A stretch of 64,000 nt of DNA, taken from positions 1-64,000 of the forward strand of contig JASANG010001414.1 in assembly GCA_030248215.1 (NCBI GenBank), given 5' to 3'. A model generated the notes under the pieces. It made no database searches. It worked only from the letters and a program-made list of their open reading frames with translations, and was not told where the DNA came from. Both the position numbers and the translations under genes were made by a program. Of the stretch, positions 31,779-64,000 are shown in pieces. Numbering within the stretch: position 1 is the stretch's first letter; every line of letters starts with the position of its first letter. This DNA comes from Enoplolaimus lenunculus. Its lineage: Eukaryota.

Positions 31779-34639
31779 CTAAGACAAACTATCCAAATAA
31801 CCAAGTACCCATTCGTTAACGTCACTACTTTTAGCAAAGCTATCATCTTCGGCTAAATAAGCGTCATATGCACATTTAGTTGCGCTAAACTGCTCGCGAT
31901 CGCTATCCGCTTGGCCTTCCAGCCTTTCCATAGCAACTTGAATTTGTTTTCTTCGAGTTTCCCACGCGTATTGTTGTTGCTGTTCCAAATTAGCATCTTC
32001 TTGATCATGGTTTGAATCTTTGCTACTTCCACTTTGATCAGATTGACTTATTTTCAAATTAGTCTCCATCAACATTGTCAAGTAATCAGCAGGTGTAATC
32101 GAATTTGGTCTCAGTGTCATTCGTCCATACTCTTGCAGTTTAGCAACCATTTCCACCACTAGTTCAGCTAGTTCCGCTTCCGTTGTGTCGTAACTTTCAC
32201 AAATTCCCACGGTAACATTTTCCGGTTCGCTATCTGTCGCTACAGCTCTGTCAGCGGAATAAAATTCTTCGAGCAGTGTGTCAAAATCAGCTCGTTCTTC
32301 AATTAAATTATCATAATGACGGATGGTAAACGCCAAACTACGATGTACTGTCCAAGCGCATTTTCCCACACACTGACCGCAAACTGCGTTTAGTTCATGT
32401 GACGTCATAGCTATGCAATTGAACTTTTTCGAATCTTTGCCAATTTTGCATTCAGCGTGACATAAATGAGTACAATTGAGACAAACAGTTGTATAGACAC
32501 CACGTTCGTTGTCGAATCGTTCATAATGATTGACGTAAACAAGCCTGTCTGCAGGATTAGAATCAGATTCAAATTGAGCCATAGCGAGTAAAAATTGAAA
32601 TAATCGACACATTTCGTCCAATTTTGCATTGATATCTTCTTGAAGGCGTTCTATAGTTGAAGCGAGCGAGCGGCGAACTTTTACCTCATCAGTTGACATT
32701 AATTCAAGGGATTTTATAGTTTTAATTTGGTCCGTTTCATCACTTGATTCAAGTTCAGCTCCTGCTGCATTGAGAGTTGCTATTTTGAACGTATAAGTTG
32801 CGTTTGATGATAGTTTTTCGACAAGACAGCTCGTTTCGCCAGGGGCTACTCTATGCACGAGGGCCCAGCCAGATTCAGCTTTATGTTGAGATTTCGTTAG
32901 CCGGCGTATCATAACGGCAACTGAAATTTGGTTCGACTTATCTTCACTTTCTATGTCCACGCTGTCCCCGATTTCAAATGAGTCCCACCGAAGGGTAACT
33001 GTACGATCGGTGACATCAGTTACCCGAAGGAATTGTGGAAGACTGGGAAGTGAAAATCGAACCGTTCGGCCGTTACGGACTGCAAACAGTGCTTCACCAT
33101 TGACCGTAGACTGTTCTCCGATCTTGTTTTTGCGAGATTTCTGGCGAATTTTTTGTGCCAAATGACCAGAAGTGACCAGATAGTATTTTGACTGCTGGGA
33201 CGTGCTGGATTTTTTTAGAGTTTTGACGTTGCGGATTTGATGTTCTAAGGTTTCTGATAGCAGCTTTGTTTGTCGTTTGCGATGATAGTTAAGCGATGCT
33301 TTGCTCCAGTCAACTGTAGTTTGACTCTGATGCGAAGAGGACTTCGTCCACTCTTTTAGTGGCAAATACGATTTCAAATCTAGCACCATACGTTCGTTTG
33401 AATAGTCTTCATTTTCGTTCACGGCTACGACACAAATATACGCGTTATGCTTCGTTGATTGCTGGCGAATTTTGTTGTACTCTGCCAGGCTTTTGATGTG
33501 CTCCATGCTCGACAGCGTAGATTTAAATTTTGAAATCGATTTCAATTCTGATTTGAACGAAGCGACCAAATTTTGAATTGCGCTCGGGTTGTAGGGTGAG
33601 CGGTTGATGTAATTCAACAGCTTCGCCAATCTACGATTAGGATCCGAAGACTCCAGTGCTGCGCCAGTTTCTTCGATGAATTCAGTTTGAAAAGTTTCCA
33701 ATGATTTCAGAGTGTTATCGATATTGTTTGCAGTTGACTTCAGCATTTCCATTTTCAATATTTCAACATAGTCAGATTTCAACTCTTCTAGTTCTTTGAT
33801 TGCCGACCTAAATGCCAGTGTCGCGTCAAAATATTCGTTGATCAATTGCTTGTCGATTTCCGTATTTTCCTTACCTTTGACTGATAGCAATTCTACGGTT
33901 ATGAGTTCTTCAGACGAGGAACTTTGTTCCTGAACGTAATCATAAAATTCACAAAACGAACTGTTAGATGTCAATCGGACTCCAGTCCCTAAATTAAAAA
34001 GATGAAAAGATGCTACTATGTTGTTGAGCTCTTCTCGTTGTTTATCAGATATTTCGCCAGAAACAAGCTTGTCCAGAAGTTGCTCCATCTGATCATGACC
34101 ACTGCCGAAGTCTTCAGTTGATTCAATTTCAAAAACATGCCATAGCCCGTATTCGGTGCCCGTAACTAAAATTGTCGAATTCAAGTTTCTTTCGTTACTA
34201 CTACTACGACTACTACGACTAGATTTTGCCGTTTCTAACAAATTTTCATCATCTTGCAGCACATGTCTTGATTTTACTTCGCGCTGTGATATACAATACG
34301 TTCTGTTACGATTACAATTTGCACTTTCGACTAAAAATGCATAACAATGTGGTGAAAATTTTCCAGCCAAGCATTTCATAGTAAGCTGTGAGTCTAGTCC
34401 TAGAACACGCGCTCGATCACAACCATTAATAATCGAACGAATCAAAATCTCGCTTTGAAGCTCGCTGCCGCGTGTTGATTGCTTCTTTTTGATTTTAAAT
34501 TGTTTTAAATTTGATAACTGGCCAATGGAGTTGCTGGCGCCGTCTTCGAATGAATATAATTGGCCAATAGCATAGTCGGTGCCGAACGGTGGACAAATGA
34601 TTCGTCCAGAACGGAACGTAACATCGGAACGCTTTATTC
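31779..34639 (-). CDS. Large terminal exon: stonustoxin/verrucotoxin-like N-terminal region, fibronectin type III domain, Cys/His-rich and helical C-terminus
   Basis: The frame stays open from the acceptor ttttaag|34639 (bounded upstream by an in-frame TAA) to TAG at 31779. ICPPFGTDYAIGQLYS resembles the SNTX-type N-terminal motif ALGRPFxLGMLYD. FN3 signature: LRVTDVTDRTVTLRW...LSSNATYTFKIATLNAAG. YTTVCLNCTHLCHAEC...CGQCVGKCAWTVH and LRPNSITPADYL match the C-terminus of SNTX-FN3-septin-like GTPase proteins. Confidence 0.75.
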
Positions 34640-35267
34640 CTTAAAATTAAGCCGAAAAACTTTGTTTTTGTTTGGCGGTGGATATGTACATAGCATAACG
34701 AAGGAAATCAGTTACAAAACTGATTTCTGCTGCTGAAAACACACACTTACGCTAAACATTGTTTTTTTAGAAATTCCGCAAAGAATATTCATATCAACTC
34801 TCACGTTTTCTGAAACGCAGTTGTTCTATTTTGCGCTAAAAATAATTGACCTGGGATCAAGCCTATTTTTATGCCATAGTAGTTAGACCAGATAGGACAC
34901 CATCATCTTTTAATATTCTTTCTTTTGACCATAACTAAGTTATCCGAAGCGTTTTTGTTCATTGTCATGTCCATTAATCTCGATATAATAAAGTTTATGC
35001 CGTTTGTATGACCGTCTGCTACATATTTGAGCTGCCTAGGCCATTTTTCTCCTTTGCTCTCTTTTATGAACTCTAATTAGGATTTACGAACTCTTTCCAC
35101 AACAGGACTATAATGAGCACCATAGACTCATATTGATTAGACCACAAAATGCGGACTTCCTATTGTTGCACCACTGTTCTTATTCGGATCGCTTTAGTAG
35201 CTAGCAGGATACACTCACAGGTCTGCCTGCGACTTTGGCAAACCATCTACCTCTCGCTCCGGGTAAA

Positions 35268-37918
35268 TTAGCTATTTTCAACCTTCGGCTCCGGTTTTTT
35301 CACCTTCGGTTGCATTGTGATACCTAAGAGTGACTCGGCTCGAGAATGTGCTCACTCAAAATAAAATTTCAGCTAAATTCAATACAATTGTTTGCCAATA
35401 GCTTAATATGTTAACGGCATATCTTAGAAACGATCCTATAACAACGATGCGAAATCAAAAACCAACCTTTTGTTAACCGATTATCGTCAACTGCCGAGCT
35501 GGATCTTCCATTTCTACTGGGTGACGATTTTTCCGTGCCTCCACGACCACGACTACTAGCGCTTCCTGTGCGTTCTACGTCAGAGACACTGCCTACAAGA
35601 AATTTACTTTCTAAAATGATAAAAACCGTGCATAAAAATGTGAAAAAAGACTTAAAAAATAAAAAAATGAAAATGATTTAAACAAGAGCCAGCGCCCGAG
35701 GGCGGTGACAAAAATAAAGAAATCAGCGTAAAGTCCTATTCACACGTGCAGGTTTTTACGACAAGAACTCGCTGCTGCAAATTTGTAAAGGATAAGTGTT
35801 TCCATCTCAAAGTTGGGTTTGCAACTGGTGCGTAAAAGTTTTTGCAGCAAGGATTTGCAGCTGCATCTGGCAGCTACAAGGTTTGTAATGAATGAATTTT
35901 CGAACAAAACTTGCACGCTGTAAACTGCTGCTGCGCGTTCTCACTGTAAAACCTTGCAAACAGCCAACAATTTCCTCGTGAAAATTGCACCTGTGAGTTC
36001 TCGCTGCAAATACTTGCACGTTTGAATGGGGCTTAAAAGGCAAACTTGCAATTTTACTTAACCAGGGTTTAAGTTCGGCCAAATTAATAGGTTCGCGATG
36101 GTTATCCTAATCACGGGCAAATTGTGGTTAGAGAAAAACAAGGTTTTCAAAATCATTGCTTATAACATTTAAAAATGCTTGCAATTTCTACAAAGTATAG
36201 TAATTGAAACATATTATATTTTGTAGAATATGACACAAGTAACTATTACCGTTCCTTTTGGAATATCTGCCACGTCCGTACCGCCTTTTGTACCGTGAAC
36301 CATCCTGATCGTCTTCGTCCTTTAATAAATTTTGTTTTTTAAATTTTAACTTTTTTTAGCGAATTCAATATATATGGCCAAAAATACCTTGTACACTGCA
36401 AAAAATGGTGAATCAATTTGTCTCTCTCCAAAAAGGGTCTACGGGACTACACACACTGAGGCAAATTCGACTCCGCCAGAGTCAAACGTGCGACTCTCAA
36501 ATTTGACTCTGGCGTAGTCGAATTTGGCTCAGTTTGTGTAGAGTCCCGTAGAGCCTATTTCGGAGAGAGTCAATTTGACTCACCATTTTTTGCAGTGTAT
36601 GCTTTTAAACCTAAATTTGTCCTCAGGCAAAGTTTTGAACCAAAGAATACAATTTTTATTCGCACTGGAAACTGCAACATATTTTCTTTAGTGTGATAAA
36701 GGTGGAAGTGACTTGAGCCCATAACCGCAGTCTAGATTAATGAGCAGAATCCTAAGCCTAAGCCTAAGCCTAAGCCTAAGCCTAAGCCTAAGCCTAAGCC
36801 TAAGCCTAAGTTTTCAACATGAAACAATATATACAACAGTTAACTAAAAATTCAATCCGCGTCAAATTAACATCCCGAAATGCATATACTTGATGCAAGG
36901 TAAACAATACATACGTTGTAGCGCATGTTTACGGAATTTTCATTTTCAAATTATAGGGGACCAAGGCCTATCGCGTAACGTTACAGCGAACTTGGCGCCC
37001 CAACAGCTTATGTTACCGTTCAAATTCTATAGTTTGTTCATTTTCGCCTTTTTACCTCATAAGGAACTCCTAACACGTCGTGTTTGTATCGTTGATTTTC
37101 AGGTGGATAAGCACGTCTGCGGTAATTATCAGTACAGAGATATCTAAAAATATATAACTTAATTATTACAAATAGAACCGCCTCTCCTGTATATATATTT
37201 TAATATATTCTGAATCAAATCCTTGTTTTAAGCTATATTTATTTACAATACGCCCTGTACATTGGGCTTAAAACGTTAGATCTGCAAAATATTCATGTAC
37301 TGTAGTGAGCCGAATAAGATGGGGCAATAAGAGGGTGGTCCCATTTTGAGTCCCAATCAATAGCAGTCCGTATCCCTAATAAGAGTCCGTAAGCGTATAG
37401 AGTCGCTAAACCCTAATTAGAGCCCATAAATGTCACTTATCCCTAACTATAGCGCATAAATGACTCTAGGACCAAACAAAGTTGAGTTCGAATAAATATC
37501 AGCCCCCCTCTTATTCGGGTCACTACAGTACGGCTAAAAATTGTTTAAACTACCTTCCATTGTCAACCAAATTATGGATATTATCAATCTTTTGCGTTCC
37601 TTTCGCCGAATACAACGTGCGCGCTCCAAAATTTAACCTAGGAAGTTTGTCCGTTAAATCGTCAAGTAACGCATCAATATGTCTATTATGACGTCTACCA
37701 ACCAACACGTCTACTCCATCAAAATGTTTATCACCAGATCTAAATACTTTAACTCGTTTTGGGACTATTTCGTAAACAAGCCGGTCCCTAAATTCGCTTC
37801 GGTTTCGTCCTTGCGTTCCGCCACCTGTTGTCACGCTTTTGCTACCAAGTGCTGTTGATTTTCGGCTAACATTGGTGCCGCTTAACGCCTTGTTTGATAG
37901 GGCACTGTTTTTAGTCAT
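35268..37918 (-). CDS. Doublecortin (DCX) domain protein; 3' end ambiguous (stop at 35268, or in-frame splice into 34639)
   Basis: Exons 37918-37554, 37143-37056, 36319-36250, 35592-35467 and 35323-(stop at 35268), all GT-AG with consistent phases. DCX domain: KRVKVFRSGDKHFDG...IDALLDDLTDKL...GARTLYSAKG...IHNLVDNGRYLCT. Confidence 0.8.
35732..36033. mobile_element. PIF/Harbinger-like MITE; degenerate relative at ~27400-27621
   Basis: TIR agtcctattcacacgtgca / tgcacgtttgaatggggct; TAA on both sides; internal TTGCAG repeats. Confidence 0.7.
36394..36597. mobile_element. CACTG-ended foldback MITE (intronic)
   Basis: Full TIRs; TA flanks. Confidence 0.88.
36751..36810. repeat. Interstitial (CCTAAG)10, i.e. 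(TTAGGC)10 on the minus strand
   Basis: Ten perfect hexamers inside a DCX-gene intron; probably a remnant of the MITE family. Confidence 0.95.
37300..37528. mobile_element. Internally deleted Tc1/pogo-like MITE
   Basis: ta|ctgtagtgagccgaataag ... cttattcgggtcactacag|ta. Confidence 0.85.
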
Positions 37919-40502
37919 ATTAGTACGTGATAATATTTGCCAGAGTTGATATAAATTAAAAATTGTTTTGGAATACTTTTAGTATTACAGGCCAATAGAT
38001 ATCTGGACACCCCTAAAAGTAACATGGGCCAGCATTACTACCAAATGTTCTTGATACTAATGCATTTTAAACCGAACTAAATGCGGCAATACTTGCTGAA
38101 AGTCACGCATGAGGTTACGCTCAGGGGTGCATACGTGGGAAATAAGAAAATATATCATACCTATTAGACCTATGTAACTACTGGAGACGGCAAAATAGCA
38201 TATTTACAGGGACATGCATAACAAGGCTGATTCTTGGATGGCAAAACTTTTTCTAGCTCGTTACGCTTGCTTGTAAAATAGTTGTACATCATGAGCTCCC
38301 TGCTCAGGTTTCGTGAGAAAATCTATCTCTGATTCGAAAACTGAGACTTCGATAGAATTTTTGCCAAACGTTCCGGAAACAGTTTGGGCGCCGAAATTTT
38401 TGGTATAATTTTCTGAACTTTGCATTGGTTTAAACGATTCTGTTTGTACCTTGTTCTAATTGTTAACGGTTAAATACCAAAGCTTCATCGGAAAGGCTCT
38501 CAAAAACAGTTTTTAACACCACTTCATGAACTGCAGAATATCGTCCCGTCTTCAGTTCTGGTAAAGCCGGGACCGACTTACTGTCCAGCCAAATTTGTTG
38601 ACCATCTGCTCTATAGATTCTATTTCAATAATTTTTTACTTGCAGTTGCAGCGTGTATAGCTGTATTCAAACTTTAGGTAAATTATACGATACAACTCGT
38701 CAAAATTTTCCTGTCAAACCTTCAAATAAAGTTATTAAGGTAAACAATTGAAATTGAAAACTTTCCAATGCTAATCGCGATATCCGAGGACATTTTCAGG
38801 AAACAGCATAAAGCACATTAAAGTGTAGGGGGTCACATTCAACTTGAGCACAGCAAATAGTGCATTGATTCACCTTTAAACTAGGCAAAATACGGTGGCC
38901 TCTCAAGCATTTTAATTGTGAAAGCCGCCCATGTAAAAGATCAGTAGCGAAACGTATTTATGCGGGACTGCAATAAAGTAAGCTTACGTTTTAGACTAAT
39001 TTTTTGCTTTAGGTTTAAAAATATGTATATATTTACTACTATTGCAACCCTAATCTATACATTGGCTGTCAATTGTCGGTGAATACACTGTAGAAGAGAA
39101 CATGATAGCGCATTTACAGTAAACACAGCAACACAAAAGCGATAAAGAACCCATACAAATGTTCCCACAATTTTAGACATAGAATTGCGACTTGTTACCA
39201 AGGCATATGTTTATACCAGGCAGAAAACTGACAGTATACTAAAACACTAACTTTTAATAGAATCGGACCAGTAATACATGCCTTAGTAACCGTGTAAAGA
39301 AAAATACGATAAGCTCAATACCTAAACAATATTTTCTGCTGTTATGGTGAAATAATTTCGAATCGTATTTTTAGCTGATTTTTTTCGACAATAAACCATG
39401 CGTAAACTTCGATTGACGTGAGACAATTGACCATTTTGTAGCAGGCCGCTGTCAGTTTTAGAATAAAAGTAAAAATATTGGCAAAAATCATCTCAGATGT
39501 TTGCAGTATTGCTTTATTTTATTGAATCATATAGGTTTTACCAAAGAGTGGATAATCGCTATTTAACGAGAGTGTACAACTGCGCAGATTCTGTGTAGAA
39601 AACAATATACCTGGTATGCGTTGCGTTTTTGGCCTACCACACTTTATTTAGGAGGGCACAACCGGTGCGAACCATGGCACTTTATGTATGTGGCGTCAAA
39701 CATGGTCCGCTTGTAGTTTAATTTAGAGGTATACGTGTGATAACGACCCACATTTTGTACCATGCGTCAACAGAGCTTGCTGTATTGATATTCTTGTAAA
39801 CCGGAAACAGAAAACAGCAAAATTACTAAAATTACAACAGACTGTAAAACATTTTTAGTCAAACTTGTGAAACATAAGTTCCTGCGAAAATTTAACCGCA
39901 TTGTATTCTTTACCGAAAAATATCGTCTAAAATACTTTAGAAATAGATTTGAAAATAATCAAACACAATCAGTCACTCCAATCAAGTGTCCAAGTGGTAC
40001 AGAATGTACCAGCACGCGTTGCGTATTTGCTCGACCCTTCAACGGAAGGGTAGGCGTTGCTTGCACCGTTGAAAATAAGATAAAACGAGTAACTGAATCT
40101 GCTTGAATTTAATACTTAACAGGCGTGAAAGTTGCAGAAATCTACAATGTTTACTCCCGTAAATAAGGGAGGTAAACCAAAAACACAACGTGCGCTGGGT
40201 ACATTCTTTCCTACGCAGAATGTGTGAAGTTGCACACTCTTGTTACACGTAAGTATCCACTGTTACTCCCATATATAACTATAGCAGCTTTCAGCTGAAT
40301 ATGCATGGTCTAATAATAGCATGTAGCCCGGTCGTGCTATAGCAACCTAACATAAGCAATACGTTTACAGTTGTATTGACATGGCAGATATATAAGCAAT
40401 CTAGTATATACAGTTCGAATATGAAGATAATGTTTTCATGCTTTCATGATTTGGTAATTTTCCAAGTAACGCTACAAAAGTACTCTCAAACTGCTACGTT
40501 AA

Positions 40503-55098: not shown

Positions 55099-57394
55099 AT
55101 GGCAAATCACATGATCAGTGGTGTTGTTTCATTAATAGTTGCACTGTCGTTATTTGCCGGCATGCAAGTAGCACGCAATGTAATCGCTAGTTCAAGAATA
55201 ATGACGATTGTTGGCGGATTTGTTGGTTCTAATATATTCGTCTTTGTATTAACGGTGTGTTGCTGTTCAGACTTTGAAAATTATAAGCGTATGAAAATGT
55301 TTTTGGAAGCCAAAAATTGTTGTTATTTTCGTAGCCGTTGCATATTAACGTTGAAACTAACTGGACATTTGTTATCGAAGCGTCAGAAATAATTAGCGTT
55401 CATTTATAATTGTAATTCGTTAAGCAATCTTTCGTTTGTAAGACTGCCATTTTGCTCAGCAAGCCTAATCTTCAATCTGCAGAAATTTGGGGGCTCAACT
55501 TGAGTTGCATCGAATATTGAGCAAGGTCCAGTACAGTTTTTTAATCATTATCCTCATCATCATTCGTTCGTGTTAAATAATCTTTATCTCAAGTTCGTTG
55601 AATAAAGGTTACTACCGGGTTGCAATCCTTAAGCGAGCTTTTCTCTATTTGTTGTTCGTTTTCAACAATCTTACTTACAACAACATCACTTATCAAATAT
55701 TTTAATCAACTTATTTAACTAAACTGAACAAATGACTGGCATTCGTTTCGAAGGAACAGTTTAGTAACTCCAATTTTTTAATGTTTAAATGATTTGGGCA
55801 CAACACTGCAAAAATTCGGTTCCTTTCGTTCTGTAGTGCCAGAAAACAGGAATAAATTTTCTGGTGGGATTCATGTTCGGAACACGACTTTCGTAGGAAC
55901 TCTGATATATATCGAACTTCAATTGTAACTTACGTATCTAATTGTATATTTTAGGCAGTTAGCAATCTCGAAATGGAGCTGTTCGGTGCCGGATTTCAGT
56001 CTCGGTTGTTTCCAGAAGGTAAGTTGTAATCGCAACCGTGACATATGTTAGAAAGCGGAAAATTTGTTCCAAAAATCTTCTGATGTTGCGAAATTGCTCA
56101 CAACGTATGAGATTGATAAATCGTGTCTCATAGCTTTGCCAGGTTTATTCGTTGAACAAATTTTGTAGGTGGTTGCATATGTTTAATATAGTAAAAAGTT
56201 ATATTTCAAAGGGTCGTTTCTTTTGAGCCTGGGGCCACGCAGAACATAAAATGCTACCGCTGAACTCAGCACGCCGAGATCTGTAGGATAAGCCACTTTT
56301 CATTGAATTCCCAGCGGTCGATATCTTGTACTTTTGAATTATTGTTTAAGTTATAATGTCGCTTTTCGCAGCGACAATCTCGTGTGGCCTTGTTCATCGT
56401 GTATCTGTGACAACATGGTAAGGTGTATTTAATTTAAGCATTGAGCAGTTTGGCTCTTGTACACTTTCCCCACAGTTATGTTTAAGGCTTAGGGCCCATG
56501 TAAAGCTCAGGGGCGGAACGTTTTTCTGTGGCATTAGAACAGAATAAGAGCTTTAGCTTTAGACTCGTATTTTTTTGCTTGGCTTAGGATTAGGCTTCGG
56601 AATATGCCTTAGGCTTAGGAGTAAGATTGCAGTTTCCTTAACATAAGTTTAAGTCTAAGCTGGTGAGGAAAGTGTATGAGTCAGGAATTTAATATATAAC
56701 TATTAGACCTTTGTGGTATTTTTTAATCAAAAGTTTCAAATATCGGTGAAGTCTTCACTGTCAGCGATGACAGTGTGAGTTGTATTCGCTTGCTCACTTG
56801 TTAAACTGAAATTTTGTCAATTTTTCTTACATATTTCTGGTTTTGTCTTTCGTGGATGGTCTTTTAATTTATTTTTAGTTTGGTCCGTTGTTAAACTTTC
56901 CCCAACAGTTGTGCACAAAGCTAACACAGCAAAAAAATTGTGAGTCAAATTGACTCTCTCCCAAATAGGCTGTACGGGACTACACAAACTGAGTCAAATT
57001 TGACTCCGCCAGAGTCAAACGTGTGACTCAGTGAGTCAAATTTGACTCTGGCAGAGTCGAATTTGACTCAATTTGTGTAGTTCCATAGAGCCTATTTCAG
57101 GAGAAGAGTCAAATTTGACTCAATTTGTGTAGTTCCATAGAGCCTATTTCAGGAGAGAGTCAATTTGACTCGCCATTTTTTGCAGTGTACCTATGCTTAA
57201 TTATAAGTCTAAATTTAAGCCTTGATAACTTTAAATGTAAAAGGGAAAGTAGGTATACAAGAACCATATTTTGTTTTTGTAGCATTATATTTTCGCTTCT
57301 GATGCTCTACTTTGTAAACAGCATCAGTAATGCTCGATACGGCATTCCTGTACAAGCACAACCGGCAGCTGCGGCTGGAAAGAAAAAGAAATGA
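55099..57394 (+). CDS. KRTCAP2: Keratinocyte-associated protein 2 (KCP2), oligosaccharyltransferase accessory subunit
   Basis: Exons 55099-55254 (SLFAGMQ...TIVGGFVGS), 55955-56018 (AVSNLEMELFGAGFQSRLFPE), 56351-56417 (GLVHRVSVTTC), 57283-57394 (C-terminal KKKK ER-retrieval tail). AATAAA at 57508-57513. Confidence 0.93.
56925..57187. mobile_element. CACTG-ended foldback MITE with an internal ~51-bp tandem duplication, in KRTCAP2 intron 3; truncated TTAGGC MITE at ~56493-56620 in the same intron
   Basis: cacagcaaaaaaattgtgagtc ... gccattttttgcagtg; atttgactcaatttgtgtagttccatagagcctatttcagg occurs twice. Confidence 0.85.
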
Positions 57395-58180
57395 GCGTTT
57401 GTTGCGGTCATACTGTTGATTTTTGACGAACGGTCCTCTTGTTCTATTTATTGTTATTGTTTTTGTTGTGTTTTTGTCTTTTGTATAGATGTACACTTAA
57501 GAAATTTAATAAATGTATTGTATCTGAATACAAAAAAGGTAATGAATCGAACGCGGAGTCTGAAACGGAGGTGCTAACATTTACAGAAGTATTTGTTTCA
57601 AAATTTCAGTTGAAAGTGTATTTTCTGTGGTACTTATATCTCAAAAGTGAAACCGGACGTAAAAAACACTGATCGGAGGACAACAAATTTCACTGGAACC
57701 TAAGGTAATACAAAGTTGGGCAAAAATATTTGAAATTTAAATTATGATGTGTGAGTGAAGCGATTCAAATAAATTGTTTTAAGCGTATTTTATGAAAAGT
57801 TATGTCAACCAAAGTCAAATATTCATAAGCACAAAAAACAGCCAATAAATAGGTTCAAAAAATGTGGCGGAAGAATTAGAAATATTTGGATTATGGCTTG
57901 ATAAAAATCGTTTTGACAACACCAAAATTGGGAGAAGTGTGAAAACGTGGTAAACTCACTAAGATGTAGAATGCCACCGAGAGGTATATCCCTTCTTGGT
58001 CGTGTACATTTTATTGTTTGTGCTATTTTAATTACATCATAAACATAGCAAATCCACCAAATTCCTTAATCTCAGAATTTTATAGAAACATAACAAGCTA
58101 CTTACGGTTTCCATCTAAATGTCGTAAAGTCAAACGAAAAATTTTATTCTTGGAGCTGAAAATGGAGGGTTAGGACTTCC

Positions 58181-59058
58181 GGCCCATGTTACGCTGAGGG
58201 CCGTCCCACTGTCCCGGGACAGCTGGGATAGCGGGGCAGCTCAGACAGTTGGACTGCCGGGGCAGCCTTTGTTAGTTTCAGGGGCGCCTCGTTTTCCCGC
58301 GGGACAGCAGTAGTGCCGAAGAGCAGCATTTGCTACTCTTGTCTATGCAAACGTGTCATTATTAAAATTTATTGTTGTTAATATTTATTACTTTGGTTTG
58401 GTTATCAAGATCGCTTAGCGCGGGGCGTACAGGGGGGCGACAGCCCCCATGCTAAAATGAGTTGCAACAGAAAATATTGTCCCTTTTTTCCGTATTTCCA
58501 GCGAGTATATATAGCTCCCCCATTTTTCCGTTTCTCAAAGCAAGTATATTGTTGCGAGGGCGTCCACACGGGGGCATTGGAGATTCATTCCGCCAAATTT
58601 GGCTGGTGCTCCACTCCTAAATTGATTCGGGCCATACATCTGAGAATCAAGCCTGGGGTGTAGAAAGCCAATATTTTGAGCGTTTAAAAGACAGTTGCTA
58701 TATATAACGCTCTAAATGTCGCCGTTGCGCGTTTGTTCACAGCTTTATTTTGCGCAATCGACGACGATTCATTTATATATTTTGGTCAAGTTTTACGTTG
58801 TCCCGCCGGCTGTCCCTCTGTTTCGGCTGTTCCACTGTCCCGGCTGTTCCACTGTCCCAGCTGTCCCCGTTGTGCCAGCTGTTTCCAATGCCCCAGCTAT
58901 CCACGCTGTCCCCGTTGTCCCAGCTGTCCCCGTTGTCCCAGCTGTCCCCGTTGTCCTATAGCTGTCCCATTGTCCCGGTTGTCCAACTATATCCGCTGCT
59001 CTCTTGCTAGCCGTTGTCACGGGACTGCGGGACGGCCCTCAGCGTATTAGCATGGGCC
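58181..59058. mobile_element. Merlin-like non-autonomous element with subterminal 9/18-bp minisatellite (gctgtccca / gttgtcccc type)
   Basis: TIR ggcccatgttacgctgagggccgtccc / gggacggccctcagcgtattagcatgggcc; imperfect TSD ggacttcc/gaacttgc. Confidence 0.8.
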
Positions 59059-60360
59059 GAACTTGCAAATGTAGAAATTCGACGACAATTTAATAGGTTT
59101 ATGACGTATACACTTGCATTTACATATAAAGCAGCACTTTTTAACGCTTGATTTTTATTTTTTTAAAACAACGCGGATTATAACGAAAATGGAAAATCTT
59201 GTAAAAAACCAAATACTTACATTGACGGACGTCCATCTGGGCACTGTCATGACCACGTCTCATTTTTGTGTGCAAATTTATTGTCCGAATAGCTGTAGTT
59301 CTTATCGATAGAAAGTATATGTATCCGGGAAGGAACAGAAACCAAAAAATACTCAAAACTAAGTATAATTTTGTGGTCAGATCTCTTGGTACAAATACCA
59401 TATGGTCCACAGTACAACTCTGAAAAATCAAAGTAGCTCATTGTGCATTTAATTGCATACAAATTTTGACGCAGAAATTGTTTCATCATTTTCATTACAC
59501 AAACTGCCTTACCATTCTGATCAAAACACTTTTTTGACTCTAGTATGGCTCGTTGTGCAGTATGTATCATTAAATTGAAAAGTCTCGTTTTTTGTCACAT
59601 CGAAACTTTTTCCCACAATAAAATCAGTCATGCTTTATTGGCTCTAAGATTTTCTATTTTTCTTAGAAGTGGCGTTATCTGAGCATACAGATTGTAGGCC
59701 CGTGGACAATACATAAACCGCTGTAAAATTATTTCATTAATTATCATACGTTCAACAATAAAACAATACGTGCAATAAAAGGAACATCACTGTAAAAATG
59801 TTTCTGCCAATTTATTCATTGCAAAGCTGCAATCTTACTTTATAGGTGGGGATAATTTATTCCACCCATTTGTTTCGGTAAATGACATTTTCGTCTACTC
59901 ATAAGGTTCCTTTTTGAATGAAACCAAATAAACTCATAATATAGTATTCGTGGTTCGGTGACAAAATTGCACATATATACCACAAAACAGATAGAAAGTC
60001 CGTATTTAAACAATGCACGCGACCGTATATGGATACATTCTTAGGTGGTGTTTGATACTGTAGCTTGTTGATTTGGTTTGTCGGTTTTTCAGGCATTATT
60101 CGACCACAAGAAACCACCCTTTGATATATTAACCCGTATATCTTAAGGCTATATACCTCGAATTGTGTTAGTGCCTGCGGACAGACCGAACCAACTTTTG
60201 AAAGATCCTAACGAAAGAATTTGTGTTTTTTCAAGTGATATATAACTACCCGAAGCGTCCCCAAAAATTTTCCTTACAGTTAGCACCTTTGCGACGTGGT
60301 TGAAATTCCGGATAAAGAAATTTGTTGGAGAAAAAGCTGTTGTCATTTCTACGACAAAGC

Positions 60361-60828
60361 AAGTGGCGCGTCAAAACGAACGATTATATATAGACATGAT
60401 TTTGCGACATTTTTAGAAACAGCGTTGTTTTGTCAACTCTAAAACCAATAATATTGTATAAATTACTGATTAAAGAAAAATTTATCAAACCATGCAGCCA
60501 TAAGATTATTTTTGGTCGGAAAAGCTTCTAATCAGCGAACGTTTCATAGGGAATGGTCGGCCCGTCATAAGTGGAGCGTCAAAACGAACGATTAAAACTA
60601 TGTTGCCCTGTATATTACATTGAGGTTAGGCAAACAATTTTAGAAAGTAATTTTTTTAGACAGGTGATTTTGCGACATTTTTTGGAAACCGCGTTGTTTT
60701 GTCAACTCTAAAACCAAGAATATTATATAAATTATGGATTAAAGAAAAATGTATCAAACCATGCAGCCAAAAAATTATGTTTGGTTGGCAAAACATCTAT
60801 TCAACGAAAGTTTCATGGGGAATGGTCA
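60361..60828. repeat. Diverged tandem duplication (~200-250 bp unit)
   Basis: aagtgg(c/a)gcgtcaaaacgaacgatta...tgattttgcgacattttt...gcgttgttttgtcaactctaaaaccaa...gggaatggtc occurs twice. Confidence 0.8.
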
Positions 60829-61264
60829 AAAGCGAAATTTATTGTTGAAGGGAATGTCTGAAACGTAGTTTTCCTGTCGAAACATAAAGCAGTTTTTACA
60901 AATCACCAGCTATGTCTCTTGACGGAAACACATGCCCACTGCACATATTGTAAGCTTAAAGGGAAACACCTAGTATGAAGGTAACGAGCATCTAATTATT
61001 TACTACCTCAGAGCAAAAGATTTTATTATCAAATTAACGCCATTATTGCAAGCGATAAGCGCAATAGTGAAATATTAAAATATCGCTGAAGTATTCCCAG
61101 GGAAAGCAAAAGGATCCAAACCATTCTATTGTGTTCAAATGTTGTACAATATGCGATATATTTAATTTGGACATCCCGAGTTGAGTTAGAAAAGAATGGG
61201 GTCGAAGTTTTGCCCATCACGGTTTTCAAAACCACAATTCTTCGTTATGCCGTATAAGAAATAG

Positions 61265-61423
61265 GGCCCATGTATATAACAGGGCCGGATCGCTTTCTGG
61301 AAGGGCTGTAATAGACTCAGTTTAAGCTTTAGACTAATTTTTTGCTTAGGAACAGGCTCATCCATACGCTAAGCTTAAGAATATGCTTATACTACTGTTG
61401 CGGCCCTGTTCCAGACATGGACC
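61265..61423 (+). mobile_element. Merlin-like MITE (A2), ending 21 bp before the LINE ORF1 ATG
   Basis: Perfect TSD agaaatag (61257-61264, 61424-61431); TIR ggcccatgtatataacagggccg. Confidence 0.88.
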
Positions 61424-61444
61424 AGAAATAGCATATATTAAATA

Positions 61445-63217
61445 ATGCCTACAACCAGTGATCACGATGTCATTGGTATTGCTGGAGGCGGCAGTATTTT
61501 GTCGGAGGAGACTTCCACCTTAACTGATCAACCACAAACCCCAATGGACACGGCAGCAATTGATCACAATCAGGATTACGACGTCGAGGGTAATAATGAT
61601 GCAAATGAATTAAAAGGGGACTATGCGAACTTATTACGGTCTAGAACACTCTATGTAACTAATCTTAAATATCATGGTCTTAATAACTTAACGTGCGTAG
61701 AAGTGCTGAACGCTGTTAATAAGGTTTTCACTGTCCAGGGCGGTGAGAAGTTTAGTAATAGTGTTAAAATTATTTTCCCATCCAAGGACATTGCATCTAT
61801 AGCAGCGGGTAAATCAATTAAAATTGGGGACTCGGAGGTAATTCTAGAAATTCCTCGCGACGCAACAATGCAATCTCCTTTTATTGTTCGAACTTTACAT
61901 CTATATGGCGTCCCCTTTGAAGTTCCGGATAAAGCGCTACAGTCGTTCTTAGCTGCTCAAAATATTCAGTGCTTGCAATCTGGTCGTTTCATCAAGCATC
62001 GAGGAAGTGAATACATCTCAAGTGGTCGAAGTTTCTTAGTCCAGATCCGCCGCGACTATAAAATACCTCCTCGGCTCCAATGGTGCGATCCTCATTTTAG
62101 GCGCGGATATATTATAATTCGGGCATGGTACCCGGGTATGGGTCGGTATTGTAAATCATGTTATAAATTTGGACATGAACAATTAGATTGTGTTGATTTT
62201 CCTGCTTTGAACAACACTGAAGTGGACACGAACTCAGCTAAACAACAACAAGAAGAGCAAGAACCCAAACAACAGTCACAACAACAGCAGCAACAGAAAC
62301 AACAAGTTCAACAACAACAATTACAACAACAACGGCAACAAATGAAAGCCGGGATAGACAAGGATCGCAGCAAGTTAAATACAAACAAGCAGTTTCTTGA
62401 TATCAGTAACTTTATTATGGGGTTAATCAAAAATATTCAGTCCAGCATTAACAATGATATTATTGTGAGAGAACCATTAGCTTTAGTCATCAATGGAAAG
62501 CTGGATTTGACTAAACTGCCAGAATCCGGGAAATCTTTTCTCAATTTTTCTGCTTGGTATAGATATTTGCATTTGAAACGATCGATGTCTCCGCCATTTC
62601 ACCCTGAGGGTGAAGACGTTAAAACATTTTTTGATTCGAAACATCCAAGCAATTATCGTCTCTCGAATTTCCATGTTGACAATCCAGTATCTGTTTGGGG
62701 CGAGTCTTTCTCATCTCCTGAAAAATTTGTCGCAGTGTGGAAGGCGAGATTCAGTGGTCGCAAAGATATCGAAGAGAAGGTTTGGGGAACAGACGATCCT
62801 AAATCAATAAAATTTTTACATAGTCAGATAGTTTGGCCGGGCACAACGTTACATTATTTGTGTATCGTTTTCGAATTAATTTATACGATTTGTTTTGCAC
62901 GAGCACAACAATGTGATGTGATTGGGCGCACACTATTGTCAACAGAGGGTCTATTGGTTGAGACTGTACCTGGGCCGGGGCCTTGGAGCTGCGGCCGTGG
63001 ACACTCCGATAATCGAGCTCAAAATAGAGTTACCTGGCGTCCTGGCAGTTTAAACTTAAATGGTGACTGTCAGACTCTTGTGCGAGAACACATTATGTTA
63101 CGAAAGGTGAGAACAGTAAGCACATCGTCTGATATATCTTCTCGCGTTACAGGTGTTAAGCGGTTGTATGAAGAGTCAGATGTGATTAGTGGCAAAAAGC
63201 CAAACATTGCAATGTGA
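61445..63217 (+). CDS. LINE ORF1p: two RRM-like segments, CCHC zinc knuckle, Gln-rich linker, C-terminal NADAR/YbiA-like domain
   Basis: RRM-like: TLYVTNL and LHLYGVPFEVPDKALQSFL. Knuckle CKSCYKFGHEQLDC (62150-62191). NADAR-like motifs LSNFH, FSSPEK, KARF, DPKSIK, LLSTEGLLVE, W, GSLNLNG...VRE (62621-63100). Confidence 0.85.
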   Translation: MPTTSDHDVIGIAGGGSILSEETSTLTDQPQTPMDTAAIDHNQDYDVEGNNDANELKGDYANLLRSRTLYVTNLKYHGLNNLTCVEVLNAVNKVFTVQGGEKFSNSVKIIFPSKDIASIAAGKSIKIGDSEVILEIPRDATMQSPFIVRTLHLYGVPFEVPDKALQSFLAAQNIQCLQSGRFIKHRGSEYISSGRSFLVQIRRDYKIPPRLQWCDPHFRRGYIIIRAWYPGMGRYCKSCYKFGHEQLDCVDFPALNNTEVDTNSAKQQQEEQEPKQQSQQQQQQKQQVQQQQLQQQRQQMKAGIDKDRSKLNTNKQFLDISNFIMGLIKNIQSSINNDIIVREPLALVINGKLDLTKLPESGKSFLNFSAWYRYLHLKRSMSPPFHPEGEDVKTFFDSKHPSNYRLSNFHVDNPVSVWGESFSSPEKFVAVWKARFSGRKDIEEKVWGTDDPKSIKFLHSQIVWPGTTLHYLCIVFELIYTICFARAQQCDVIGRTLLSTEGLLVETVPGPGPWSCGRGHSDNRAQNRVTWRPGSLNLNGDCQTLVREHIMLRKVRTVSTSSDISSRVTGVKRLYEESDVISGKKPNIAM

Positions 63218-63271
63218 ACGTGCATTTTTTTTTGTTTTACATGCCTTAAATTGATATGAAAGAGAGTCAAT

Positions 63272-64000
63272 ATGGATCTGCCAAATTTCTTTTCTTTTTC
63301 CAGTTTAAATTGCAGATCCATTAAGCATTTTCGAAAAGTGTCGATAGTTTTTGAAAGGATAAAAGATTTGGATTTGATTTGTCTGCAAGAGACACATTTT
63401 AAAAATAATTGGGATGCAGAGATTTTTGATAGAATTTTCTCACGCAATTTTAAAATATTTCACAGTTTCGGAAGCGAGGAGAATAGTAAAACAGGGGTAA
63501 CGGTCCTTATAAATAGGACAGCTCCTGTTGGTCAAATTGAAAACATTTTTAATATTCAGGGTAGGGCGGTCACGATTGCTTTTAGTATTGGTTCTCTTTC
63601 TTTTTTCTTAATTGGTATTTATGCTCCCGCGAACGGCGAGCAGCGAGTAGTTTTTTTCAACCAGCTGATGCAACAAGTGCAAAATTCGTTTTGGTTTGAT
63701 TATAAATGTGTTATTATGTTGGGTGATTTTAACTTAGTTGAGGACCCGGTTTTGGACCGATCACGGCCGTCATATGATCAGCAGCAAGGCCTGAGAGAGC
63801 TTTATTGTTTGAAGGAACTGTTGGTGATATCTGATGTTTTTAGGGAGACACATCCAAATAAAAACGACTTTTTTACTTTTCTTTCAGACATTCATGGAAG
63901 TCAGTCTCGTATAGATCGGATTTATATGCCGGCTTTTTTACAACCGGGCGCTTTGTGTACCGCTCGCGCAGTGAACAAGACAGATCATAGGTTGTTTAGA
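63272..64000 (+). CDS. LINE ORF2p N-terminal apurinic-like (APE) endonuclease domain, truncated by the window end
   Basis: MDLPNFFSFSSLNCRS...ICLQETH...GVTVL...GIYAP...MLGDFN...DVFRETHP...FTF...SRIDRIY...TDH: the expected EEP motifs are present. Confidence 0.93.
   Translation, partial: MDLPNFFSFSSLNCRSIKHFRKVSIVFERIKDLDLICLQETHFKNNWDAEIFDRIFSRNFKIFHSFGSEENSKTGVTVLINRTAPVGQIENIFNIQGRAVTIAFSIGSLSFFLIGIYAPANGEQRVVFFNQLMQQVQNSFWFDYKCVIMLGDFNLVEDPVLDRSRPSYDQQQGLRELYCLKELLVISDVFRETHPNKNDFFTFLSDIHGSQSRIDRIYMPAFLQPGALCTARAVNKTDHRLFR

What the first reader, a model, noticed from the sequence alone, without database searches (positions are those of the whole stretch)
61445..64000. L1/Tx1 retrotransposon whose ORF1p carries a NADAR (ADP-ribosyl hydrolase-type) domain
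Seen: after the RRM-like domains, CCHC knuckle and poly-Gln linker, ORF1 aa ~393-552 show the NADAR/YbiA motif series in order (FF...LSNF; F-S-S-x-E; KA-x-F; DP-x-x-x-K; LLST...LVE; W; N-x-x-G...VRE). They are in frame in an intact ORF1, 54 nt before an intact APE ORF2. Known: NADARs include E. coli YbiA (N-glycosidase), phage T4 gp30.3 and the DarT1 antitoxin that removes ADP-ribose from guanine in DNA. Common ORF1 accessory domains are RRM, CCHC, PHD and SGNH esterase, and host PARPs act at L1 endonuclease nicks. Inference: the element may pack an ADP-ribose eraser or reader into its RNP to counter or exploit host ADP-ribosylation of its RNA, cDNA or target site. That would be a transposon parallel to phage and viral anti-ADP-ribosylation enzymes. 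I cannot tell from here whether this architecture is already catalogued.
Basis: partly seen in the sequence, partly recalled or inferred. Interest (0 to 1): 0.88.

Follow-up and report, generated by a model that had tools for sequence, protein, structure and literature searches.

The report
LINE ORF1 with remodelled NADAR domain
A multicopy jumping gene (LINE retrotransposon) has an RNA-coating protein that ends in a NADAR domain, a fold that elsewhere strips ADP-ribose off DNA and RNA bases; it likely still cuts but has an altered binding pocket, and the pairing was already noted in print for oyster elements, though its function is untested.

Summary
ORF1 (61445-63217, 590 aa) has two RRMs, a CCHC knuckle, poly-Gln and a YbiA-family NADAR at aa 393-550. 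Pfam matches the full profile (E 6e-7, below gathering), and the predicted fold matches NADAR 8BAU (Z 16.6, 2.3 A). An APE ORF2 starts 54 nt later. The RT lies beyond the window, but the closest ORF2 relatives carry APE plus RT.

The domain is not a one-off. It sits in near-identical, high-depth contigs in three runs. 33 of 78 ORF1 relatives have the same N-terminus plus NADAR, and a second LINE locus shows the layout in DNA.

It is not new. PMC12477816 (2025) notes NADAR in ORF1 of oyster Tx1 LINEs, and this scan found it before in other genomes.

Added here: the catalytic Glu/Lys/Glu are kept, but the pyrophosphate Arg is lost in most ORF1 NADARs. This subclade also drops the Asp and fixes a His. 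The likeliest role is removing base-linked ADP-ribose from the element's own RNA or cDNA. Erasing PARP marks at nicks is unlikely, as tested NADARs ignore phosphate-linked ADP-ribose.

The parts
61445..63217 (+). ORF1, 590 aa, type I ORF1p (RRM-RRM-CCHC) extended by poly-Gln, a helical linker and a C-terminal NADAR
61634..61855 (+). RRM 1 (aa ~64-137)
   Evidence: AF2 model; VIA Z 9-10.6 to RRM domains; no Pfam sequence hit
61880..62128 (+). RRM 2 (aa ~146-228)
   Evidence: AF2 secondary structure; tandem-RRM matches such as HuR and nucleolin
62150..62191 (+). CCHC zinc knuckle C236-x2-C-x4-H-x4-C249
   Evidence: its three Cys and His are invariant in the 21-sequence ORF1 alignment A4
62243..62341 (+). 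poly-Gln tract (aa 267-299)
62342..62599 (+). predicted helical linker (aa ~300-385), poorly conserved
   Evidence: 0-11% identity to 20 relatives
62621..63094 (+). NADAR domain (aa 393-550). Kept: E426, K433, K456, E506, W514 and aromatic W464. Replaced: G78->H459, R79->S460, W89->Y471, D130->P511 (8BAU numbering)
63218..63271 (+). 54-nt inter-ORF spacer with a poly-T run
   Evidence: 1-2 nt length differences in other copies
63272..64000 (+). ORF2 start: APE endonuclease, open to the window end; RT not in the window
   Evidence: best relatives P0002 and P0003 (46-49%) carry APE + RT
61264..61424 (.). MITE-like inverted-repeat element directly upstream; not part of the LINE
   Evidence: 17 related places in the window; very high depth
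61425..61444 (+). probable 5' junction; the match to another contig begins at 61434, 11 nt before the ATG, so this copy likely lacks most of the 5' UTR
   Evidence: one loose-end contig in run X1; weak

Best explanation
This is a multicopy L1-clade (Tx1-like) LINE whose ORF1 protein joins two RRMs and a CCHC knuckle to a C-terminal NADAR, which is likely an active N-glycosidase that would remove ADP-ribose from bases (G, perhaps C) on the element's own RNA or single-stranded cDNA. Shown: the architecture, the fold, the multicopy state, conservation across many relatives, and retention of the catalytic Glu/Lys/Glu. From known LINE biology: ORF1p coats its own RNA in cis in many copies, so the domain would be tiled along the RNP. 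Inferred: the activity, the substrate, and that the marks come from a host base-modifying ADP-ribosyltransferase such as a CARP-1/pierisin-type enzyme. The weakened pyrophosphate pocket may be tolerated because the RRMs and knuckle already hold the nucleic acid.
For: Fold: Z 16.6 to ADP-ribose-bound NADAR 8BAU. Catalysis: 8BAU E43, K50 and E125 correspond to the residues tested by mutagenesis in E. coli C7 NADAR (PMC11543638, passages). They map via to E426, K433 and E506, all kept. K75, W133 and the adenine-stacking aromatic (Y84->W464) are also kept. E125 as Glu is the YbiA-family marker (PMC11125620, part 1 of 6). In the 33 fused relatives E43 is 33/33, K50 is K/R in 30/33, E125 is 28/33 and W133 is 31/33. 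Selection: the NADAR is 17-33% identical to 20 relatives, like the RRMs (10-42%), while the linker is 0-11%. All NADARs tested removed G-linked ADP-ribose from RNA (PMC11833690), and YbiA-type ones also removed it from C (PMC12945103, passages). CARP-1 homologues occur in Bivalvia, Cnidaria, Porifera and Bilateria. NADARs of invertebrate RNA viruses are proposed to counter host ADP-ribosylation (PMC9503650, passages).
Against: The pyrophosphate contacts are altered. R79 is R/K in only 6 of 33 fused domains (E/D in 18), against 80 of 80 viral ones. In this copy R79, W89, R93 and D130 are replaced, and D130 is absent in 9 of 9 closest relatives including this one. Phosphate coordination was called critical in PMC11543638. 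Four fused relatives have also lost E125 yet keep the domain, so the domain can persist without canonical catalysis. No host transferase could be looked for, as no genome is held. No paper on ADP-ribosylation of retrotransposon bases turned up in the listings. NADAR removal of CARP-1 marks is itself unconfirmed.
Confidence: 0.4

Rival explanations
1. The domain is an active N-glycosidase with a shifted substrate. The remodelled pocket (His for Gly78, no Arg79, often Lys/Arg for Asp130) would take another ribosyl adduct, such as a modified or damaged base, an RNA-end processing by-product or a small nucleotide signal.
For: The catalytic residues are kept while the pocket changes are fixed. His replaces G78 in 7 of 7 closest relatives that cover the site and in 0 of 80 viral NADARs; D130 becomes K/R in 6 of 9. 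YbiA itself cleaves riboflavin intermediates. PMC12477816 suggests processing of RNA intermediates.
Against: No alternative substrate can be named from the data. K50, K75, W133 and the adenine-stacking aromatic of the ADP-ribose site remain.
Confidence: 0.3
2. The domain is a non-catalytic nucleotide- or RNA-binding or structural module of the RNP, like the CTD of human L1 ORF1p or a reader of ADP-ribose.
For: Several pyrophosphate contacts are lost here. Four of 33 fused relatives lack E125 (T or C) but are conserved. The window domain scores below the Pfam and NCBIfam cut-offs.
Against: E43 is invariant in 33 of 33 and E125 is kept in 9 of 9 of the window's close relatives, at about 35-55% identity. 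That is hard to explain without chemistry, though these Glu residues also bind the distal ribose.
Confidence: 0.2
3. The domain erases or reads PARP-made ADP-ribose on phosphate ends or proteins at the endonuclease nick (one branch of the first reader's idea).
For: PARPs at L1 nicks are recalled knowledge; one search gave only listings. A 2026 preprint reports PARP10/15 modifying RNA bases (10.64898/2026.03.31.715305, start of abstract only).
Against: The NADARs tested were inactive on 5'- and 3'-phosphate ADP-ribosylated RNA and on 5'-phosphate DNA (PMC11833690). Vertebrates have PARPs and L1 but no NADAR.
Confidence: 0.07
4. The domain is a neutral passenger of this copy, or ORF1 is a host gene next to a LINE fragment.
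For: The RT of this copy was not seen; it would lie beyond the window end.
Against: ORF1, including the NADAR, lies in contigs of depth 2485-3526 against 39-52 on flanking DNA in run X2, with 0-4 differences per contig. There are 33 relatives with the fusion. L001 has a NADAR-ending ORF just before an APE ORF. ORF1 is intronless.
Confidence: 0.03

Closest known systems
NADAR-bearing ORF1 of several Tx1 LINE families of Crassostrea gigas (Repbase; noted in PMC12477816, Genome Biol 2025)
   Same: YbiA-family NADAR within ORF1 of an L1/Tx1-clade LINE; function untested
   Different: Different host and family. The paper gives one paragraph and an alignment figure (Fig. S2, a picture I could not see), with no residue analysis in the passages read. 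Whether the oyster domains share the His/no-Arg/no-Asp pocket is unknown.
YbiA-family NADAR in Pol of Ectocarpus Gypsy lineage IV (PMC12477816)
   Same: Retrotransposon-borne NADAR
   Different: LTR element; domain at the Pol N-terminus; described as highly conserved with close bacterial hits, whereas this domain is only 24-34% identical to its phage and plasmid matches
Phytophthora nicotianae NADAR (PDB 8BAU) and E. coli YbiA (2B3W)
   Same: Fold (Z 16.6 and 14.3); E43, K50, K75, E125 and W133 equivalents
   Different: Stand-alone enzymes. R79, W89, R93 and D130 equivalents are replaced here and G78 is His.
DarG1 antitoxin (BC4488 family) and T4 gp30.3
   Same: NADAR fold; G-ADPr hydrolases
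   Different: Those carry Asp or His at the family position where this has Glu. No cognate toxin is linked here.
Type I ORF1p (RRM + CCHC; Khazina and Weichenrieder, as described in PMC4120745)
   Same: RRMs immediately upstream of a CCHC knuckle
   Different: One knuckle only, plus a C-terminal enzyme-fold domain that is not among the five listed types

Membership tests
NADAR superfamily | YbiA fold (helical core with two small sheets) | tested here: met
   Z 16.6 to 8BAU, 14.3 to 2B3W; Foldseek top two. The model's alignment held canonical NADARs; the single-sequence model failed (pLDDT 34).
NADAR superfamily | Pfam PF08719 at gathering score | tested here: not met
   30.3 bits against 35.1, though full-length and E 5.9e-7; 30 of 33 fused relatives pass
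YbiA family of NADAR | Glu in the last strand (E125 of 8BAU) | tested here: met
   E506
NADAR ADP-ribosyl hydrolases | catalytic E43/K50/E125 equivalents | tested here: met
   E426, K433, E506
NADAR ADP-ribosyl hydrolases | pyrophosphate contacts K50, R79, W89, R93, D130, W133 | tested here: not met
   Only K50 and W133 are kept; W89->Y, R79->S, R93->V, D130->P. R93 varies in viral NADARs too (R/K in 33 of 80).
NADAR ADP-ribosyl hydrolases | hydrolysis of base-linked ADP-ribose | not testable with these tools
   needs an enzyme assay
L1-clade LINE | ORF1 followed by ORF2 with an N-terminal APE | tested here: met
L1-clade LINE | RT in ORF2, of L1 type | tested here: inconclusive
   Beyond the window. 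The nearest ORF2 relatives have RT, and P0003 matches human L1 ORF2p at E 5e-59 against R2 at 1.5e-10; only L1 and R2 RTs were among the hits.
L1-clade LINE | dispersed multicopy family with 5'-truncated copies | tested here: inconclusive
   High depth that tends to rise 5' to 3'; contig depth is not a copy number and no insertion sites were seen
Tx1 subgroup | type I ORF1 (RRM + CCHC) | tested here: met
   PMC5203782 links such ORF1s in non-mammalian animals to Tx1
Tx1 subgroup | RT phylogeny with reference Tx1 elements; target-site specificity, TSD and 3' tail | not testable with these tools
   no Repbase references, no 3' end and no genome

The most novel reading that the evidence does not exclude
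ORF1-borne NADARs form one old transposon-specific branch locked in an arms race with an undescribed animal defence that ADP-ribosylates bases of retrotransposon RNA or cDNA. The repeated remodelling of the pocket (Arg79 to Glu across the branch; His78 and loss of Asp130 in this subclade) would track changing host marks, and the domain has also passed to an RT-RNase H element (P0065).
Probability: 0.25. Interest if true: 0.85.

Novelty: new member of a known kind. Interest (0 to 1): 0.42.

Why it matters
If the domain is an eraser, it points to an unrecognised chemical defence against transposons in invertebrates (base ADP-ribosylation), parallel to phage and RNA-virus counter-defence. It would also give CARP-1-type transferases an endogenous target. 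The architecture itself is in print, so the value of this locus is practical. It is a young family with an intact ORF1, and it represents a subclade with a changed pocket, a good partner for a canonical ORF1 NADAR in a side-by-side assay.

Tried and rejected
Single-sequence AlphaFold2 of the domain gave pLDDT 34 and was not used. phmmer of the domain against PDB sequences found no NADAR. A word-indexed search with aa 385-556 found none among 154 candidates. The window proteins are not in the 15-billion collection by exact match. No second copy of the element lies in the window.

The ORF2 alignment found no relative in viral contigs. In metagenome contigs it found 79 distant LINE loci (23-38%), of which only 1 of 79 (L001) has a NADAR; many of these loci lack upstream DNA, and the contig of P0003 was not among them. 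Pfam does not recognise the RRM region.

No whole genome is held, so copy number, TSDs, the RT, target preference and host transferases could not be checked. dN/dS could not be computed: the copies differ at too few sites and relatives were available as protein only. The ESM Atlas gave no answer. No RNA holder was listed. The tree is the quick one; the careful search did not finish, one-clade tests were not run, and five short rows were left out.

E125, D130 and W133 are near-fixed in the 80 viral NADARs by the search motif, so those three columns are no independent control. R79, G78 and Y84 were not in the motif. As a motif-free check, 17 of the 19 library hits on the non-ORF1 side of the tree keep D130 and 15 of 19 have R/K79 (read).

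Rejected: a host gene beside a LINE fragment; a chance motif match; a one-copy fusion.

Full report
Observation. The window ends in two forward frames: ORF1 at 61445-63217 (590 aa) and, 54 nt later, ORF2 from 63272, open for 243 aa to the edge. Pfam NADAR covers aa 395-550 over profile positions 2-162 of 163 (E 5.9e-7; 30.3 bits, gathering 35.1), and TIGR02464 agrees weakly. In tblastn, the 15 phage rows shown are annotated COG3236, DUF1768, NADAR, gp or hypothetical, and 9 of 11 plasmid matches are annotated NADAR, at 24-34% identity. A profile of 80 viral NADARs gives 39.3 bits against a best of 8.7 in 2000 shuffles.

Fold. An AlphaFold2 model of aa 60-556 from 111 sequences has mean pLDDT 87. 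Its top structural matches are 8BAU (Z 16.6, 2.3 A, 160 residues) and YbiA (Z 14.3), followed by RRMs for the N-terminal part. The alignment held canonical NADARs, so the fold result is not independent of the sequence match.

The element. ORF1 is type I: RRMs directly before a CCHC knuckle (PMC4120745, passages). In non-mammalian animals such ORF1s go with Tx1 (PMC5203782, passages). ORF2 begins with an APE. Its best relatives P0002 (46%) and P0003 (49%) are APE+RT proteins of 1186 and 1153 aa, and P0003 is closest to human L1 ORF2p among solved structures. The best ORF1 hit, P0009 (575 aa, NADAR 61 bits), has the same source and contig length (5734) as P0003, so the two probably form one complete element; this is circumstantial. 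The RT of this copy was not seen, and Tx1 membership could not be tested by phylogeny.

Copies. Three DNA-type runs from two samples of one study hold the stretch; one may be the source of the window. Across ORF1, including the NADAR, listed contigs have depth 2485-3526 in X2 against 39-52 on listed flanking contigs, and 268-444 against 13-32 in X1, with 0-4 differences each. Depth is not a copy number, but the contrast, the even cover of the NADAR and a rising trend toward the 3' side fit a young, dispersed LINE family. The window copy differs from all or most contigs at seven listed substitution sites; only one is in the NADAR and it is synonymous. One loose end suggests the match to the family starts at 61434, 11 nt before the ATG, right after a MITE. 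This copy therefore likely lacks most of its 5' UTR.

Spread. phmmer against 1.84 billion representatives gave 78 hits. At 20 bits each, 33 have both the ORF1 N-terminus and a NADAR, 11 have the N-terminus only (166-406 aa, possibly fragments), 33 have a NADAR only and 1 has neither. Thirty of the 33 pass Pfam's cut-off. The query contained the NADAR, so this is no estimate of how often the family carries it. Of 79 distant LINE loci, one (L001) has a NADAR-ending frame (47.6 bits) just before an APE frame that is 35% identical to the window's. Against 20 relatives the NADAR keeps 17-33% identity, the RRMs 10-42% and the linker 0-11%. In a quick tree, the window domain, 32 fused relatives and 11 NADAR-only hits lie on one side of a branch with SH-aLRT 95, apart from 21 viral and 19 other NADARs. 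Five short rows were left out, the root is arbitrary and the outgroup sampling is narrow, so a single origin is suggested, not shown.

Active site. 8BAU residues (PMC11543638, passages) were mapped through a phage NADAR. The window keeps E43, K50, K75, E125 and W133 (E426, K433, K456, E506, W514) and an aromatic at the adenine-stacking Y84 (W464). It replaces G78 with His, R79 with Ser, W89 with Tyr, R93 with Val and D130 with Pro. Among the 33 fused relatives E43 is invariant and E125 is kept in 28, but R79 is R/K in only 6 and acidic in 18, against 80 of 80 basic in viral NADARs. In the window's closest relatives His78 is found in 7 of 7, D130 in 0 of 9 and E125 in 9 of 9. These look like fixed changes under selection rather than decay. 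The viral set was picked by a motif containing E125, D130 and W133, so it is no control for those columns.

Mechanism. By established LINE biology ORF1p coats its own RNA, which would place many NADARs along the RNP. All NADARs tested remove G-linked ADP-ribose from RNA, but none acted on phosphate-end ADP-ribose of the kind PARPs make (PMC11833690, passages). YbiA-type enzymes also remove C-linked ADP-ribose, and guanine-modifying CARP-1 homologues occur in bivalves, cnidarians, sponges and bilaterians (PMC12945103, passages). I therefore favour removal of base-linked ADP-ribose from element RNA or cDNA (0.40), over a shifted substrate (0.30), a non-catalytic module (0.20), PARP marks at nicks (0.07) and a passenger (0.03). 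Activity, substrate and the host antagonist are all inferred.

What is known. PMC12477816 (passages and supplement legend read) reports YbiA-family NADARs in ORF1 of several Crassostrea gigas Tx1 families and in Ectocarpus Gypsy Pol, with role unclear. Its Fig. S2 alignment is a picture I could not see and may already show the pocket changes. Searches for NADAR with retrotransposon, ORF1/LINE and Tx1 terms gave no other relevant paper and no functional test. Repbase, Dfam and subscription journals were not searchable. The scan's own notes hold 19 findings with these words in at least 5 genomes (eight shown, unchecked), and none similar in sequence.

Verdict. The feature is real and well supported, and it is a new member of an architecture already noted in print. 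Its value is an untested but directly testable function and a subclade with a remodelled pocket. Interest 0.42.

Noticed in passing
window 61264-61424 and 16 other places: A MITE-like family with ~23-nt inverted repeats; many copies carry internal TTAGGC arrays. The LINE starts within about 10 nt of one copy's right end, which could be chance or a Tx1-type target preference.
   Followed up: partly
P0065 (ENA, 900 aa): RT + RNase H + NADAR in one protein, and its NADAR groups with the ORF1-borne ones: a possible transfer of the domain to an LTR- or DIRS-type element.
   Followed up: partly
P0017, P0024, P0027, P0039: A subclade of ORF1 NADARs in which the catalytic Glu (E125) is Thr or Cys while the domain stays conserved.
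   Followed up: partly
window 62783 (run X1): One contig has a 17-nt loose end resembling a template-switch cDNA adaptor (recognised from memory). The run is guessed to be DNA and it is a single contig, so this is no evidence of expression.
   Followed up: no
window 31779-34640 (-): An intronless 953-codon open frame with a weak fibronectin type III match and a Cys-rich C-terminal stretch; unexplained.
   Followed up: partly
window 37550-37978 (-) and 55099-55392 (+): Exons that look like a doublecortin-domain gene and KRTCAP2 (recognised from memory, not tested); they suggest an intron-rich animal host.
   Followed up: no
window 60391-60558 and 60657-60827: A direct repeat of about 170 nt, 88% identical, upstream of the element.
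   Followed up: no
window 58180-59060: Another repeated element with inverted ends and an internal short tandem repeat; high depth in all three runs.
   Followed up: no
window 63351-63367: A low-depth contig with six clustered differences in the APE points to a diverged sister family in the same runs.
   Followed up: no
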